From: a virus | Taxonomy: Duplodnaviria > Heunggongvirae > Uroviricota > Caudoviricetes | Virus record (IMG/VR): IMGVR_UViG_3300015214_000024 | Coordinates: 169,787-233,786 of that record | Length of the DNA: 64,000 nt | Strand: one strand, 5' to 3' | Part shown: positions 13,481-27,591 of the stretch, piece after piece | Layout of the letters: every line of letters begins with the position of its first letter | Numbering within the stretch: position 1 is the first letter of the stretch | The notes under the pieces: model-generated | The model's database searches: none | What the model was told of the DNA's origin: nothing | Seen by the model: the letters and a program-made list of their open reading frames with translations, nothing else | Position numbers and translations under genes: made by a program

Positions 13481-13581
13481 GGGCCAATAGTGTATGACGA
13501 AACGCTAATTAATTAGTAAAGTAGGCGGTGAGCACGGGCTTCATACAGGGTCTAGGATGGGTTCGATCCCCATTTGGTCCA
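13481..13581 (+). ncRNA. tRNA-like RNA with D-loop insertion
   Basis: GGGCCAA/UUGGUCC acceptor, GUGU/GCAC D-stem with enlarged loop, T-arm. Confidence 0.55.
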
Positions 13582-13623
13582 CACGTTGACAAACTTAATC
13601 AAATTCGCTATGTTGCATCTATG

Positions 13624-21567: not shown

Positions 21568-21689
21568 AGAGTTTAGTTTAGAGTGTGGTGAAATGGTAAA
21601 CACGGGCGGCTAATAACCGCCCCCCACAGAGGAAACGAGCATTTAAATGAACGTTGCTGGTTCGAGTCCAGCCACTCAAAACTAAACTT
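21568..21689 (+). ncRNA. tRNA-like RNA, AAU anticodon, extended acceptor stem
   Basis: GGCGG-CUAAUAA-CCGCC; ~16-bp terminal stem; no CCA. Confidence 0.6.
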
Positions 21690-23938: not shown

Positions 23939-24024
23939 GCGGTTATGGTGGAATGGCAGACACACTATCTTGAGGGGGTAGCGAGAGAAATCTCATAAGG
24001 GTTCAAGTCCCTTTAACCGCACCA
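23939..24024 (+). tRNA. tRNA-Leu(GAG)
   Basis: Loop UUGAGGG, CCA. Confidence 0.9.
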
Positions 24025-24255
24025 AAAAGAACGTTGCGAGTAGCTATCGCATAGTTAGGCTGATATCCTGATGAAGAATCCAGTTAGCCCTGGAAAAACT
24101 ATCCCTGACTTGGAAAGCTGGTTGACATAACATATAATGTCACGTATTGGGATTTATACGATAAATTGAGCCGTGGAGGTGAGCGTTGATCTAGCTGATC
24201 TAAAGTAGGCTAGGGAGTGATCGGACCCGTGAAGCGGACAATTAAATCCCAACAT

Positions 24256-24332
24256 CTGGAAGTAGCGCAGCCTGGTAGCGTACCTCATTTGGAGTGAGGG
24301 GGTCGGAGGTTCAAATCCTCTCTTCCAGACCA
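24256..24332 (+). tRNA. tRNA-Pro(UGG)
   Basis: Loop UUUGGAG, CCA. Confidence 0.9.
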
Positions 24333-24340
24333 ATTATTGT

Positions 24341-24455
24341 GCGGATGTAGCTTAATGGGTTGGTCGAGCTAGATAAGACCAAACTTAGTGGCCACTAAGT
24401 AAAGCGGCAGGTAGTTAACCTGGAGAAGGTGGTTCGATTCCATCCATCCGAGCCA
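24341..24455 (+). ncRNA. tRNA-Asn(GUU)-like RNA with two hairpins in the D-loop
   Basis: D-stem GCUU/AAGC encloses two hairpins; GCCA end. Confidence 0.6.
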
Positions 24456-24590
24456 AAAAGAAATTGAACATATTTTGTTTGTGTGGGTAAAAGCATTGAC
24501 AACGTTAGTATTGCCTCTATAATCTAGACGTTGTGTGGGTTCAAGTCCCTGAGGAGGCTTCAGCTTTTTAACAGCAAATATGTCAATCAT

Positions 24591-24667
24591 TCCCCTGGGG
24601 TCCTATCGGTAGGGACGCCTGACTGTTAATCAGGTTGCTGTAGGTTCGAATCCTACCAGGGGAGCCA
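24591..24667 (+). tRNA. tRNA-Asn(GUU)
   Basis: Loop CUGUUAA, GCCA. Confidence 0.9.
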
Positions 24668-24896
24668 ATTAGAAATTCAAACTAATGATTAATTAGGAAA
24701 CTTGCCAATGGGTCGACACAGACGCAAGGATAATTTTTAAAAATTAGGGAGATAGGAGAAGTCCTGGGCGGGCGCCAACCTTTATGGCTAGCCGGCGCGA
24801 ATATAGGGTTCAATTCCTTATAGTGGAAAACAAAGTCGTGTTTTTCATCCTTGGGCAGGGTAGGTTCAATTCCTCGCTTCTCTGAACGCAACATAT

Positions 24897-24973
24897 TCCC
24901 AATGGGCCCTATTGGCAGGGGCACGACGCTGTTAACGTCGACGCTGTAGGTTCGAATCCTACATTGGGAGCCA
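24897..24973 (+). tRNA. tRNA-Asn(GUU)
   Basis: Loop CUGUUAA, GCCA. Confidence 0.9.
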
Positions 24974-24987
24974 ATTTGAGGTATGAT

Positions 24988-25410
24988 ATGAATTACAAAG
25001 GACATAAAGATAAAATTTATATTTGTGAAAATTGTTTTTCTGAAATAGCCTTCAAAGGCTATTCAAACAAGCACCGATTTTGTGATATGAAATGTGCTGG
25101 TGAATTTAAAGTTAAGGAAACTAAAGATAAAAATTTAAAATTATTCCTTCAAGGTAAATTAACGCGCAGGGATAGAATTTATGAAATATTAGTTGAACGC
25201 GATGGTAATTGCTGTTCTGTTTGTAAAATTACCGAATGGAATGGTAAAGAAATTCGTTTATGGGTTGACCATATTGACGGAAATGCTACCAATAATTCAC
25301 CGAATAATTTTAGACTGATTTGTCCAAATTGTGATTCACAAAGTGAAACTTTTGGAGCCAAGAATCGAGGCAATGGAAGAAAATCAAAAGGATTACCGCA
25401 ATATGGGTAA
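24988..25410 (+). CDS. HNH endonuclease
   Basis: CSVC..VDHIDGN..NN...N.RLICPNC. Confidence 0.88.
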   Translation: MNYKGHKDKIYICENCFSEIAFKGYSNKHRFCDMKCAGEFKVKETKDKNLKLFLQGKLTRRDRIYEILVERDGNCCSVCKITEWNGKEIRLWVDHIDGNATNNSPNNFRLICPNCDSQSETFGAKNRGNGRKSKGLPQYG

Positions 25411-25413
25411 TAT

Positions 25414-25488
25414 TCCGGAGTAACTCAATGGTAGAGTAACTGGCTGTTAACCAGTAAGTTGGGGGTTCGAGTCCCTCCTCCGGAGCCA
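25414..25488 (+). tRNA. tRNA-Asn(GUU)
   Basis: Canonical. Confidence 0.93.
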
Positions 25489-25610
25489 TTAAAGTTTAGG
25501 CAAAAAGAGAAGGCGGTTAAATTCCGTCTAGGCGAGAGATCAAGGGCCCATTTATGGAGGTCTTGGCGAGAGAATATAGCATAATGTTAATGTGCTTTTT
25601 GTCTTACCAT

Positions 25611-25882
25611 TTTGGTATAGTGTAAAGGAAAAGTTCAGTAAGTTGCTGAAAAGTTTCTAATAAGCTTATCGGAGAATAGTGAAAGTATTAACAGTAGCAA
25701 ACGCAAAGGCTATAAAAACCGTGAGCTTGGGAAGGGCAAGACAGGCTGTTAATATGGAAACTGGGATTTGATAAGTGGATGATTAACTTAGTAAGTAGGT
25801 GAAAGGCTTAGTACGTGGTAGCACGCCGGCATAGCACTTGCGTTTTGGAGCCGGAAGTGAGGTTCGAGCCCTCTTACCAGAG
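25611..25882 (+). ncRNA. tRNA-Gln(UUG)-like RNA with ~190-nt D-loop insertion and 12-nt anticodon-loop insertion
   Basis: UUUGGUA/UACCAGA acceptor, GUGU/GCAC D-stem, CCGGC/GCCGG stem, T-arm. Confidence 0.6.
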
Positions 25883-25892
25883 CTAATAGAAA

Positions 25893-26071
25893 TTATCCAT
25901 CGTCTAAACGTGGTACTAACGATAGGGAGTGATCACCTGACAATAGGTCGATTGAAAATTAGTATTGAAATCTACCAATCACGTGTAAGGTAGAAAGTAA
26001 AGAAATGTTTCTTTCAGTTAGGACGCCGCCCGTGGAGGGCGGAAATATCAGCACACTGATTGGATAAACCA
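25893..26071 (+). ncRNA. tRNA-like RNA with ~110-nt D-loop insertion and reduced T-loop
   Basis: UUAUCCA/UGGAUAA-ACCA; GUCU/GGAC D-stem; CCGCC-CGUGGAG-GGCGG. Confidence 0.55.
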
Positions 26072-26185
26072 ATGTGTAGCTTAATTGTTGAGGATTTATT
26101 TTCAACAATTAGTTCGTAAGAATGTTCACCGTATGGTGTAGGACGTTCGGGATATAATTGCGGGGAGGGGCATTATATCATTCAT

Positions 26186-26261
26186 CTAGATGTGGGAAAG
26201 TTGGTAATCCGCCTGTTTCGGGAACAGGAGACCGCCGGTTCGAGCCCGGCCCTCTAGACCA
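26186..26261 (+). tRNA. tRNA-Pro(CGG)
   Basis: Loop UUCGGGA, CCA. Confidence 0.9.
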
Positions 26262-26325
26262 ATTCTTGACATAGCATTGAACTAATGCTATTAGATTTCT
26301 ATTAACAATTTAGCTCAGAAAGGAT

Positions 26326-27591
26326 ATGGCGATGTATGATCAGTATGTATGCGTAATGTTCCCGTATCCTAGTGGCGCTGGCCTGCATTTGGGTCATTAT
26401 TACAACTATGCTGTAATTGACTCATATGCTAGGTGGCAGCGTTTTAAAGGTCAGACGGTTTTTCAACCTTTTGGTTATGATGCTTTTGGCTTGCCTGCAG
26501 AAAACTATGCTCGCCAAATTGGCGGTGATCCTAGAACAATAACTAATCAAAATATTCAAAATTTCCGTAAACAAATGCGAAATATGAATACTTTGTATGA
26601 CGAACAGTTGGTTACTTGTGAAACTGATTACGTTAAGTGGACCCAATGGATCTTTAATGCTTTGAAAGATCGTGGATTAGCATACAAAGCTTGGGGTGAA
26701 GTAAATTGGTGTGAACAGTGCGGGACCGTGTTGGCTAATGAACAAGCGCAAAATGGCATTTGTGAACGCCACGGAACTCCTGTTGAAAAACGTCAAATGA
26801 ATCAGTGGTATTTCAAGATTACTGATTATACTGATCGATTGATTAAGAATTTGGACTGGATTGATTATCCGGAAGGGACTAAGAAGCAACAGCGCAAATG
26901 GTTGGAGGATCAGCAAGATTGGTGTGTCAGTCGTCAGCGTTCTTGGGGCTGTCCTATACCAATTGAAGGTGAAACTGACACCTTGGACACTTTTGTTGAC
27001 TCTTCATTTTATTTCTTGCGCTATTTGACTAAAAGTGAAGATGAGTTTTTGCCAGCTGATCAATACAAGCAAGTCGATCTGTATGTTGGTGGCCCAGAAC
27101 ACGCTTGTATGCATTTGATATATGCTCGTTTTATTCATATGGTTTTGTTTGATATGGGAATTGTTCCTGAAGAAGAGCCATTTAAGAAAGTTATTCATCA
27201 GGGTATGATTACCAAGGATGGGAACAAGATGAGCAAAAGTAAAGGTAATGCCGTTAGTCCTGATGACTATGATCCTGACGAATTGAGAATGTATTTGATG
27301 TTCTTGGGGCCATATTTTGAAGGTGGGGATTGGAGTGACCAGCATATTGTTGGTGTTCGCCGCTTCTTCAATAGGATGAAAACTTGGTTGGGAGAAGCTG
27401 GCACTGAAAATATTGACACTTCTCAGTTGGAAAATCAAATTGATCATTATGTTTCTACTTTCAAATTTAATAAAGTAGTTTCAAGTTTTATGGAATTTAT
27501 GAACAAAAATAAATCCAAAAAAGTTGATAATGAAACTCGAAATAAAATTGTCAGAATGTTGACTAATTTTGCCCCAGGGTTTCGAATTTAA
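26326..27591 (+). CDS. leuS: Minimal leucyl-tRNA synthetase (no CP1 editing or C-terminal domain)
   Basis: MFPYPSG.GLHLGH, DAFGLPAEN, DWCVSRQR.WG, DTFVDSS, KMSKSKGN; only 421 aa. Confidence 0.93.
   Translation: MAMYDQYVCVMFPYPSGAGLHLGHYYNYAVIDSYARWQRFKGQTVFQPFGYDAFGLPAENYARQIGGDPRTITNQNIQNFRKQMRNMNTLYDEQLVTCETDYVKWTQWIFNALKDRGLAYKAWGEVNWCEQCGTVLANEQAQNGICERHGTPVEKRQMNQWYFKITDYTDRLIKNLDWIDYPEGTKKQQRKWLEDQQDWCVSRQRSWGCPIPIEGETDTLDTFVDSSFYFLRYLTKSEDEFLPADQYKQVDLYVGGPEHACMHLIYARFIHMVLFDMGIVPEEEPFKKVIHQGMITKDGNKMSKSKGNAVSPDDYDPDELRMYLMFLGPYFEGGDWSDQHIVGVRRFFNRMKTWLGEAGTENIDTSQLENQIDHYVSTFKFNKVVSSFMEFMNKNKSKKVDNETRNKIVRMLTNFAPGFRI

What the first reader, a model, noticed from the sequence alone, without database searches (positions are those of the whole stretch)
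24341..26071. tRNA bodies with large structured insertions in the D-loop
At 24341 (two hairpins), 25611 (~190 nt, nested helices such as GCUUAUCGGA/UUUGAUAAGU and GUAUUAACAG/CUGUUAAUAU) and 25893 (~110 nt), and also at 13481, intact acceptor and D stems enclose extra RNA inserted just after D-loop positions 14-15. The repeated insertion site suggests a class: a tRNA scaffold used as a carrier for cargo RNA, or non-canonical introns.
Basis: partly seen in the sequence, partly recalled or inferred. Interest (0 to 1): 0.7.

Follow-up and report, generated by a model that had tools for sequence, protein, structure and literature searches.

The report
tRNA-shaped RNAs with D-loop cargo
Inside this giant phage's row of tRNA genes sit tRNA-shaped RNAs that carry an extra folded RNA in their D-loop. 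One belongs to a conserved, apparently undescribed RNA family whose two distant tRNA halves change together across phages, so it is a working RNA and not a broken or intron-split tRNA.

Summary
Window 24341-24455 (A), 25611-25885 (B) and 25893-26071 (C), and less clearly 13481-13584 (D), are tRNA bodies whose acceptor and D stems close around 40-190 extra bases. The insert follows the D-loop GG (positions 18-19), not positions 14-15.

B is the strong case. Three other phage lineages (L245, L246, L206) have the same layout, and all 7 long-range acceptor pairs and 3 of 4 D-stem pairs show compensatory changes. Its cargo has two covarying helices. An invariant core is complementary to a fixed 18-19-base loop that replaces the anticodon loop. 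About 13 other viral contigs carry the same cargo in front of a contiguous cloverleaf. The scan had already noted that form on other DNA (e1-5380939).

A (Asn-like, A33) and C (Pro-like, G33, no T-loop) occur only in near-identical strains. C's body is conserved and its insert has one compensatory pair.

Nothing supports splicing: no ribozyme match, no RtcB or EndA gene, and contigs from an RNA library keep the inserts. The best reading is non-decoding, tRNA-processed scaffold RNAs. What the cargo does is unknown.

The parts
24341..24455 (+). A: tRNA-Asn-like RNA (GUU, A33, G73, encoded CCA) with a 40-nt two-hairpin insert (24360-24399) after D-loop AAUGGG; starts 8 nt after tRNA-Pro 24256-24332
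   Evidence: fold; ARAGORN calls tRNA-Asn after deletion of the insert; not called intact
25611..25628 (+). B, 5' tRNA part: acceptor 5' strand 25611-25617, U8 A9, D-stem 5' strand 25620-25623, D-loop AAAGG
   Evidence: 7 of 7 acceptor pairs and 3 of 4 D-stem pairs have compensatory changes in 4 lineages
25629..25816 (+). B cargo domain. Helix H5 is 25685-25694 with 25746-25755; invariant core 25695-25720 (holds AAACGCAAAGGCU); hairpin H6 is 25726-25729 with 25737-25740; ACAGG at 25741-25745
   Evidence: 13 of 14 pairs of H5 and H6 change on both sides; 0 of 500 shuffles reach the observed values
25817..25885 (+). B, 3' tRNA part: GGUA, D-stem 3' strand 25821-25824, stem CCGGC/GCCGG 25826-25854 around the fixed 19-nt loop 25831-25849, T arm 25858-25874, acceptor 3' strand 25875-25881, tail GCUA (GCCA in relative X15)
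   Evidence: loop exact in other viral contigs; 25884 T>C; loop complementary to core
25893..26071 (+). C: tRNA-Pro-like RNA (UGG, G33, A73, encoded CCA) with an insert of about 110 nt (25906-26020) in the D-loop and a tetraloop hairpin in place of the T arm; starts 7 nt after B
   Evidence: z -3.1; 10 strain differences in the insert, 1 (keeps a G.U pair) in the body; compensatory A25974G with T25991C
13481..13584 (+). D: weaker tRNA-like unit with 38 nt between D-stem strands GUGU/GCAC, G3.U70, A73, no CCA; possibly a shortened relative of B
   Evidence: scan; alignment to B, z 3.5; not found by a profile of B

Best explanation
These are non-decoding RNAs derived from tRNAs and made as part of the phage's tRNA transcripts. 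A tRNA body (acceptor stem, D stem, T arm, CCA-type tail) closes around an extra RNA domain grafted into the D-loop just after the GG that contacts the T-loop.

Shown. For B, the two tRNA halves 250 nt apart pair with each other and covary. The cargo has a conserved fold. The anticodon loop is replaced by a fixed 18-19-nt sequence.

Inferred. The tRNA body lets host RNase P, 3' trimming and CCA addition cut the RNA out of the tRNA precursor and stabilise it, as in engineered tRNA scaffolds. The fixed loop pairs with the invariant cargo core (9-10 bp, plus up to 5 more), folding the cargo back along the anticodon arm. The resulting particle binds an unknown partner. My guess is a protein or ribosomal site that normally handles tRNA. 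It does not read codons.

A and C are younger, lineage-restricted products of the same route. They keep the Asn or Pro anticodon and discriminator but have a purine at position 33, and C has no T-loop. They are more likely mimics or decoys than decoders.
For: Four lineages (window, L246, L245, L206) have different but perfectly paired long-range acceptor stems. RNAalifold finds them unaided. Pairing is 96% against 34-45% with slid partners, and 0 of 500 shuffles match it. Cargo helices H5 and H6 covary. The loop and core are exact in 13 to 18 viral contigs. In each of the four members the loop's best duplex is with the same core, with z from -1.9 to -4.1. The two loop changes in L206 and L246 increase the complementarity. 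A near relative changes the tail GCUA to GCCA. B and C lie 7 nt apart, and A lies 8 nt after a tRNA. Against the relative X15, B's cargo differs at 5.9%, C's insert at 8.7% and the 3' tRNA parts at 2-3%, while the spacer-dominated stretch 25488-25635 (which includes B's first 25 bases) differs at about 14%. C's insert hairpin has a compensatory A-U to G-C change. No Rfam family other than tRNA matches the region.
Against: No RNA ends, processing or stability were measured. The only RNA-library evidence is assembled contigs, which may derive from DNA. The loop-core pairing has no covariation, because both strands are invariant, and its 5-bp extension is lost in L245 and L246. A and C have no homologues beyond strains about 94-97% identical. 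No differences inside A were among the 40 of 132 listed, so nothing is known about selection on it. A's folding energy is ordinary (z -1.1). An engineered D-loop insert in E. coli tRNA-Tyr was not stably expressed (PMC5397188). Only four lineages support the D-loop layout.
Confidence: 0.6

Rival explanations
1. The inserts are introns. They are cut out and the halves joined to give working tRNAs, by a protein pathway or by self-splicing.
For: Deleting A's insert gives a sequence that ARAGORN calls tRNA-Asn. Earlier notes of this scan report insert-bearing tRNAs in this phage and others (unchecked here).
Against: Without their inserts, B keeps a 19-nt anticodon loop, C lacks a T-loop and A and C lack U33. 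B's insert is conserved and covaries like a functional RNA. In about 13 contigs it lies outside the tRNA body. No group I or II or other ribozyme matches. The complete phage genome has no RtcB or EndA. No run shows a joint that removes an insert, and the RNA-library contigs keep the inserts. In the predicted folds the inserts are separate hairpins, with no bulge-helix-bulge across the junctions.
Confidence: 0.06
2. A, C and D are tRNA gene copies damaged by insertions and decaying in a redundant array that already has four Asn and five Pro tRNAs. Only B is functional.
For: A and C have no homologues outside near-identical strains. A structure scan finds no excess of such genes beyond the B family. 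They have aberrant position 33, C has lost its T-loop and D has a weak anticodon stem. A's fold energy is not unusual.
Against: All stems of A and C are intact, including perfect insert hairpins. Both keep the discriminator and an encoded CCA. Against X15, C's body has 1 change in 64 nt, and that change keeps a wobble pair. Its insert has 10 changes in 115 nt and the spacer-dominated stretch 25488-25635 has about 14%. C's insert has a compensatory pair and a strongly non-random fold. In both A and C the anticodon and positions 37-38 still match the cognate tRNA, while position 33 (and 32) has changed.
Confidence: 0.22
3. A, and perhaps C, are still chargeable tRNAs with an extra arm. They would be used either in decoding or as amino-acid donors outside the ribosome.
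For: A has GUU plus G73 and C has UGG plus A73, which are the main AsnRS and ProRS identity elements in E. coli (established knowledge). Both encode CCA. A keeps G18 G19 and a normal T-loop.
Against: A purine at position 33 should prevent the U-turn needed for decoding. C has no T-loop, which EF-Tu and the ribosome elbow contacts rely on. Nothing here tests charging.
Confidence: 0.1

Closest known systems
Engineered tRNA scaffolds for recombinant RNA (Ponchon and Dardel 2007; from my own knowledge) and Spinach-tRNA fusions (PMC5397188)
   Same: A tRNA body encloses a foreign structured RNA, so that cellular tRNA enzymes process and protect it.
   Different: Those are artificial, and the cargo replaces the anticodon stem or sits in the variable loop. 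In PMC5397188 a D-loop insert between C16 and G18 was not detectably expressed. Here the graft is natural, lies after G18 G19, and covaries.
tmRNA
   Same: The 5' and 3' ends form an acceptor stem and T arm around a large internal structured domain. It is processed like a tRNA.
   Different: B has a D stem and an anticodon-type arm, has no G3.U70, and has no conserved tag reading frame. ARAGORN and the Rfam tmRNA models do not match it.
Phage T4 stable RNAs, species 1 and 2 (rnaC, rnaD), in the T4 tRNA cluster (from my own knowledge; also named in scan note e1-5380939)
   Same: They are small stable RNAs of unknown function, encoded among phage tRNA genes, with tRNA-like ends.
   Different: No sequence relation was found, and the phage collection gives no match. 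T4 has no known D-loop-embedded domain or fixed anticodon-loop replacement.
The form of the same family with a contiguous cloverleaf (scan note e1-5380939; loci L020-L029, L207, L209)
   Same: Same cargo core, same helices H5 and H6, same fixed loop, same T arm.
   Different: There the cargo lies 5' of a complete cloverleaf and begins right after a tRNA's CCA. Here and in L245, L246 and L206 the 5' quarter of the tRNA body has moved upstream of the cargo, so the cargo sits inside the D-loop.
Archaeal non-canonical tRNA introns (bulge-helix-bulge, including D-loop positions)
   Same: Extra RNA interrupts a tRNA gene outside position 37/38.
   Different: The predicted folds show no bulge-helix-bulge. 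The phage has no splicing endonuclease or RtcB. The 'exons' alone would not make normal tRNAs.
T-box stem I bound to tRNA; bacterial YrlA Y-RNA with a tRNA-like module (from my own knowledge)
   Same: An RNA domain that reaches both the elbow region and the anticodon loop of a tRNA fold (T-box). A tRNA mimic inside a larger non-coding RNA (YrlA).
   Different: In B both partners are one molecule and the pairing is 9-10 bp, not 3. There is no Rfam match to either.

Membership tests
Canonical decoding tRNA | 7-bp acceptor stem, discriminator and CCA-type end | tested here: met
   A has 6 of 7 pairs and GCCA. B has 7 of 7 and GCUA (GCCA in relative X15). C has 7 of 7 and ACCA.
Canonical decoding tRNA | 7-nt anticodon loop with U33 | tested here: not met
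   A has A33, C has G33, B has a 19-nt loop and D has A33 or an 8-nt loop.
Canonical decoding tRNA | D-loop of 7-11 nt; recognised by ARAGORN or Rfam RF00005 | tested here: not met
   The D-loops hold 38-197 nt. None of the four is called intact. A is called only after its insert is deleted.
Canonical decoding tRNA | 7-nt T-loop (UUCRANY) on a 5-bp stem | tested here: inconclusive
   Met in A, B and D. Not met in C, whose loop is the 4-nt CACA.
B-type tRNA-array RNA (conserved cargo plus fixed loop; undescribed, noted by the scan as e1-5380939) | Fixed loop CAUAGCAYUUGCGUUU in the anticodon position, and core AAACGCAAAGGCU between covarying helices H5 and H6 | tested here: met
   B has both. 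The loop is exact in 10 plus 5 viral contigs. H5 and H6 covary. A, C and D lack them.
B-type tRNA-array RNA, D-loop-embedded form | 5' acceptor and D-stem strands lie upstream of the cargo and pair with the 3' strands | tested here: met
   Window, L246, L245 and L206 are 100% paired, with 10 of 11 pairs changed on both sides.
tmRNA | G3.U70 alanine identity, tag reading frame with a conserved C-terminus, no anticodon arm | tested here: not met
   B has U3-A70 and an anticodon-type arm. Frames read from the core end at different places (after 5 codons in L246), from the sequences. No tmRNA was called.
Protein-spliced (bulge-helix-bulge) tRNA intron | Bulge-helix-bulge at the junctions; endonuclease and ligase available; removal gives a functional tRNA | tested here: not met
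   The folds show separate hairpins. The phage has no PF01974 or PF01139 gene. Host enzymes were not testable. The products would be abnormal.
Group I or group II self-splicing intron | Match to the ribozyme core models | tested here: not met
   A permissive Rfam scan of 24000-26400 finds only tRNAs and chance-level hits.

The most novel reading that the evidence does not exclude
B-type RNAs are self-gripping tRNA mimics. A domain grafted into the D-loop runs down the tRNA body and pairs with a redesigned anticodon loop, like a T-box-tRNA complex fused into one molecule. The particle would act as a switchable decoy or sensor for a tRNA-handling factor of the host or phage. Grafting cargo into the D-loop would then be a recurrent way for huge phages to invent new RNAs (A, C, L160, L201).
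Probability: 0.15. Interest if true: 0.85.

Novelty: new variant of a known kind. Interest (0 to 1): 0.62.

Why it matters
It shows that a natural tRNA fold can tolerate, and keep through evolution, a 190-nt domain in its D-loop, a site where an engineered insert failed. It defines a conserved phage RNA family with a testable architecture: a long-range tRNA clamp, two covarying cargo helices, and an anticodon-loop-to-core pairing. The family also exists in two permuted gene layouts, which gives a natural experiment on how RNA modules are rearranged. It adds to the evidence that tRNA arrays of huge phages encode tRNA-derived RNAs that annotation tools either skip or would treat as broken tRNAs.

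Tried and rejected
- BLAST and nhmmer of A, C, D and the spacers found nothing. They were run against five related huge-phage records and 2.2 Mb of loci around the neighbouring mini-LeuRS gene.
- Exact scans of viral contigs with the anticodon arms of A and C gave only chance hits in coding DNA.
- The B loop pattern was absent from metagenome contigs in its huge-phage form and from GTDB genome contigs. No cultured phage in GenBank matches B or the contiguous form.
- The inserts are not repeats within the genome, so a mobile repeat family is rejected.
- My first structure scan was too loose, giving 45 hits against about 40 in controls. Stricter scans show no excess beyond the B family.
- L247 and L248 were chance hits to the loop pattern.
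- L201's loop pattern is unique to its own contig.
I therefore could not fetch the contigs of the near relatives. One search listed only 40 of 132 differences, so variation inside A is unknown.
- The fourfold higher depth of the RNA-library contig over B and C, compared with the upstream contig, is contig-level data and counts for nothing.
- A tmRNA-like tag and an ORF in C's insert were considered and dropped: the frames are not conserved, and 25991 T>C removes the stop.

Full report
**Setting.** The window is bases 169787-233786 of a 455-kb viral record that CheckV rates complete. The record was assembled from landfill metagenomes. ARAGORN finds 56 tRNA genes in the window and Rfam finds 59 tRNA matches, all on the + strand. 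The finding lies in a block of Leu, Asn and Pro tRNAs. That block also holds HNH endonuclease genes and a 421-aa LeuRS-like gene. Neither program calls a gene at 24341, 25611, 25893 or 13481. A permissive Rfam scan of 24000-26400 gives only the five ordinary tRNAs and chance-level hits.

**Anatomy of the four elements.**
- **A (24341-24455)** reads as acceptor, UA, D stem GCUU, then AAUGGG. Two perfect hairpins follow, then UA, AAGC and an Asn-type anticodon arm (UAGUUAA, so A33 in place of U33). It ends with a normal T arm, G73 and CCA. The minimum-energy fold of the sequence alone gives exactly this cloverleaf. With the insert deleted, ARAGORN calls tRNA-Asn(GTT).
- **C (25893-26071)** has a perfect 7-bp acceptor stem, D stem GUCU/GGAC, and a GC-rich anticodon stem with loop CGUGGAG (Pro UGG anticodon, G33). 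It ends in A73 and CCA. A 5-bp stem with a 4-nt loop stands where the T arm should be, and about 110 nt lie in the D-loop. Its fold is much more stable than shuffles (z -3.1).
- **B (25611-25885)** has acceptor UUUGGUA/UACCAGA and D stem GUGU/GCAC about 200 nt apart. A stem CCGGC/GCCGG carries a 19-nt loop in place of the 7-nt anticodon loop. The T arm is normal and the tail is GCUA.
- **D (13481-13584)** is similar in outline but has a poor anticodon stem.
- In A and B the extra RNA follows the D-loop GG, not positions 14-15.

**Is this more than chance?** A 7-bp complement within a few hundred bases is common. A loose scan found as many 'split tRNAs' in shuffled controls as in the genome. 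A stricter scan over 3 Mb required a perfect acceptor, a perfect D stem, U8, an anticodon-type hairpin and a true T-loop. It found 13 loci against 2-5 in controls, and the excess is almost entirely the B family and D. Pairing alone therefore does not prove any single case.

**B belongs to a conserved family.**
- The 21-nt centre of B's loop occurs exactly in 10 other viral contigs. Looser patterns add more, and two further hits were chance matches in coding DNA.
- In about 13 contigs (L020-L029, L207, L209, L240) the homologous cargo lies 5' of a complete, contiguous cloverleaf. There it begins directly after the CCA of a tRNA. This is the family the scan noted earlier on other DNA (e1-5380939).
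- Three further lineages have the window's layout: L246, L245 (from a 490-kb contig) and L206/L212/L227. A 5' acceptor strand, U8, a D-stem strand and A-R-N-G-G lie upstream of the cargo, and the rest of the tRNA body lies downstream.
- Their acceptor stems are UUCUCAA/UUGAGAA, CGAAAGU/ACUUUCG and UUGAUCG/CGAUCAG, against UUUGGUA/UACCAGA in the window.
- On a MAFFT alignment, RNAalifold predicts the long-range acceptor and D stems unaided.
- Counting pairs gives 96% paired, against 34-45% when partners are slid. All 7 acceptor pairs and 3 of 4 D-stem pairs change on both sides, and 0 of 500 shuffles do as well.

**The cargo is structured.**
Thirteen of 14 pairs change on both sides, and 0 of 500 shuffles match.
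- Between these helices lies an invariant single-stranded core (25695-25720) that holds AAACGCAAAGGCU.
- The fixed loop contains UUGCGUUU, or UUUGCGUUUG in L206 and L246, which is complementary to that core. In all four D-loop-type members the loop's best duplex with the cargo falls on this same site (z -1.9 to -4.1).
- The two loop differences seen in L206 and L246 lengthen the pairing from 8 to 10 bp. Both strands are otherwise invariant, so no compensatory change supports this contact. I mark it as inferred.

**Evidence from near relatives.** Public runs hold strains 94-97% identical to the window.
- A DNA contig (X3) spans A and B.
- Two contigs from a metatranscriptome library (X15) span A, B and C with all inserts present. 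No run shows a joint that removes an insert. These are assembled contigs and may derive from DNA, so this is only weak evidence against splicing.
- In X15, position 25884 is C, which turns B's tail GCUA into GCCA. That fixes the register of the acceptor stem.
- The listed differences against X15 give 11 in B's 185-nt cargo and 2 in B's 3' tRNA part. They give 10 in C's 115-nt insert and 1 in C's tRNA body (C26029T, which keeps a G.U pair). The stretch 25488-25635, which is mostly spacer but includes B's first 25 bases, differs at about 14%.
- In C's insert, A25974G and T25991C change an A-U pair to G-C in the hairpin 25971-25976/25989-25994, and C25972T keeps a wobble pair.
- G25931C and C25934G turn the palindrome GUGAUCAC into GUCAUGAC, which is still self-complementary. 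I cannot place this in a fold. It could mark a dimerisation site or a palindrome that acts at the DNA level.
- No differences inside A were among the 40 of 132 listed, so nothing is known about variation within it.

**A and C outside these strains.** None of the following found a relative:
- BLAST in five related huge-phage genomes;
- nhmmer over 2.2 Mb of loci around the LeuRS gene;
- exact scans with their anticodon arms.

Their inserts are unique in the genome. Two further D-loop-insert candidates turned up in related huge phages (L201:17124-17361 and L160:17283-17433). They are singletons, and taken together such cases are no more frequent than chance.

**Introns?** No group I, group II or small ribozyme model matches. 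The complete phage genome has no RtcB and no archaeal-type splicing endonuclease. The predicted folds show the inserts as self-contained hairpins, with no bulge-helix-bulge across the junctions. Removing the inserts would still leave abnormal tRNAs. B's insert is conserved like a functional RNA and in many contigs lies outside the tRNA body. I give splicing about 6%.

**What it most likely is.**
- B is a non-decoding RNA in which a tRNA body clamps a conserved cargo domain.
- I infer the following steps from established tRNA biology; none was shown here:
  - RNase P and the 3' processing enzymes release the RNA from the polycistronic tRNA transcript;
  - CCA is present or added;
  - the tRNA fold protects the RNA.
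- In the contiguous layout RNase P would separate cargo from cloverleaf, and only the loop-core pairing could hold them together. In the D-loop layout they stay covalently joined. This may be why that layout has been kept in several lineages.
- A remnant (…UUAGUA-CGU-GGUA…) aligns with the 5' quarter of the contiguous cloverleaf. This suggests that the D-loop layout arose when a second 5' quarter upstream of the cargo took over and the internal copy decayed.
- The cargo's function is unknown. My best guess is binding of a factor that handles tRNA.
- A and C keep their cognate anticodon and discriminator but have lost U33, and C has also lost its T-loop. They look more like tRNA mimics than decoders. 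Plain decay of redundant gene copies remains a real alternative for them (about 22%).

**Comparison with known systems.**
- B works like an engineered tRNA scaffold and resembles tmRNA in topology, but it fails the tmRNA membership tests.
- An artificial Spinach insert in the D-loop of E. coli tRNA-Tyr was not detectably expressed, whereas a variable-loop insert was (PMC5397188). A naturally conserved D-loop graft is therefore notable.
- Three literature searches found no description of such RNAs.
- I rate this a new variant of a known kind (tRNA-derived non-coding RNA), with interest 0.62.

Noticed in passing
window 24892-25487: An HNH endonuclease gene (ATG 24988 to 25410) lies between two tRNA-Asn copies (24897-24973 and 25414-25488). 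A 94%-identical relative (run X15) has only 80 letters in place of this stretch. This looks like a mobile HNH cassette that duplicated its tRNA target.
   Followed up: partly
window 24496-24568: A perfect sigma-70 promoter (TTGACA, 16 nt, TATAAT) sits inside the array. It is followed by an orphan T-arm-like GGGTTCAAGTCCC (24537-24549) and a hairpin with a T run (24549-24568), just before tRNA-Asn 24591. This may be a regulated leader.
   Followed up: no
window 25923-25934 and 24211-24222: The 12-mer TAGGGAGTGATC, nearly the complement of the 16S rRNA 3' tail, occurs in C's insert and again 35 nt upstream of tRNA-Pro 24256. A single 12-mer repeat is at chance level in this genome.
   Followed up: partly
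window 25929-25936: The palindrome GTGATCAC becomes GTCATGAC in relatives X3 and X15. Both substitutions together keep it self-complementary. No intramolecular partner was found. It could be an RNA dimerisation site or a DNA-level palindrome.
   Followed up: partly
L201:17124-17361 and L160:17283-17433: Two more tRNA-like units with 162-nt and 83-nt D-loop inserts lie in related huge phages, each directly after a tRNA. The 5' end of L201 resembles that of B (UAGUUUAAUAGGAAAAA). No homologues were found.
   Followed up: partly
L246:7358-7510: Right after the B homologue in L246 lie two further odd tRNA-like units that ARAGORN does not call.
   Followed up: no
window 26326-27591; L046-L050, L054: The 421-aa mini-LeuRS has 69-72% identical copies in assemblies of several Microvirga isolates. 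This may be a clue to the host, or a sign of related phages in those cultures.
   Followed up: no
window 21579-21680 and L245:7179-7284: The Rfam tRNA model matches two over-long units. One has about 30 extra nt in the variable region and the other has 35 extra nt in the anticodon loop. Other kinds of interrupted tRNA-like genes therefore occur in these arrays.
   Followed up: partly
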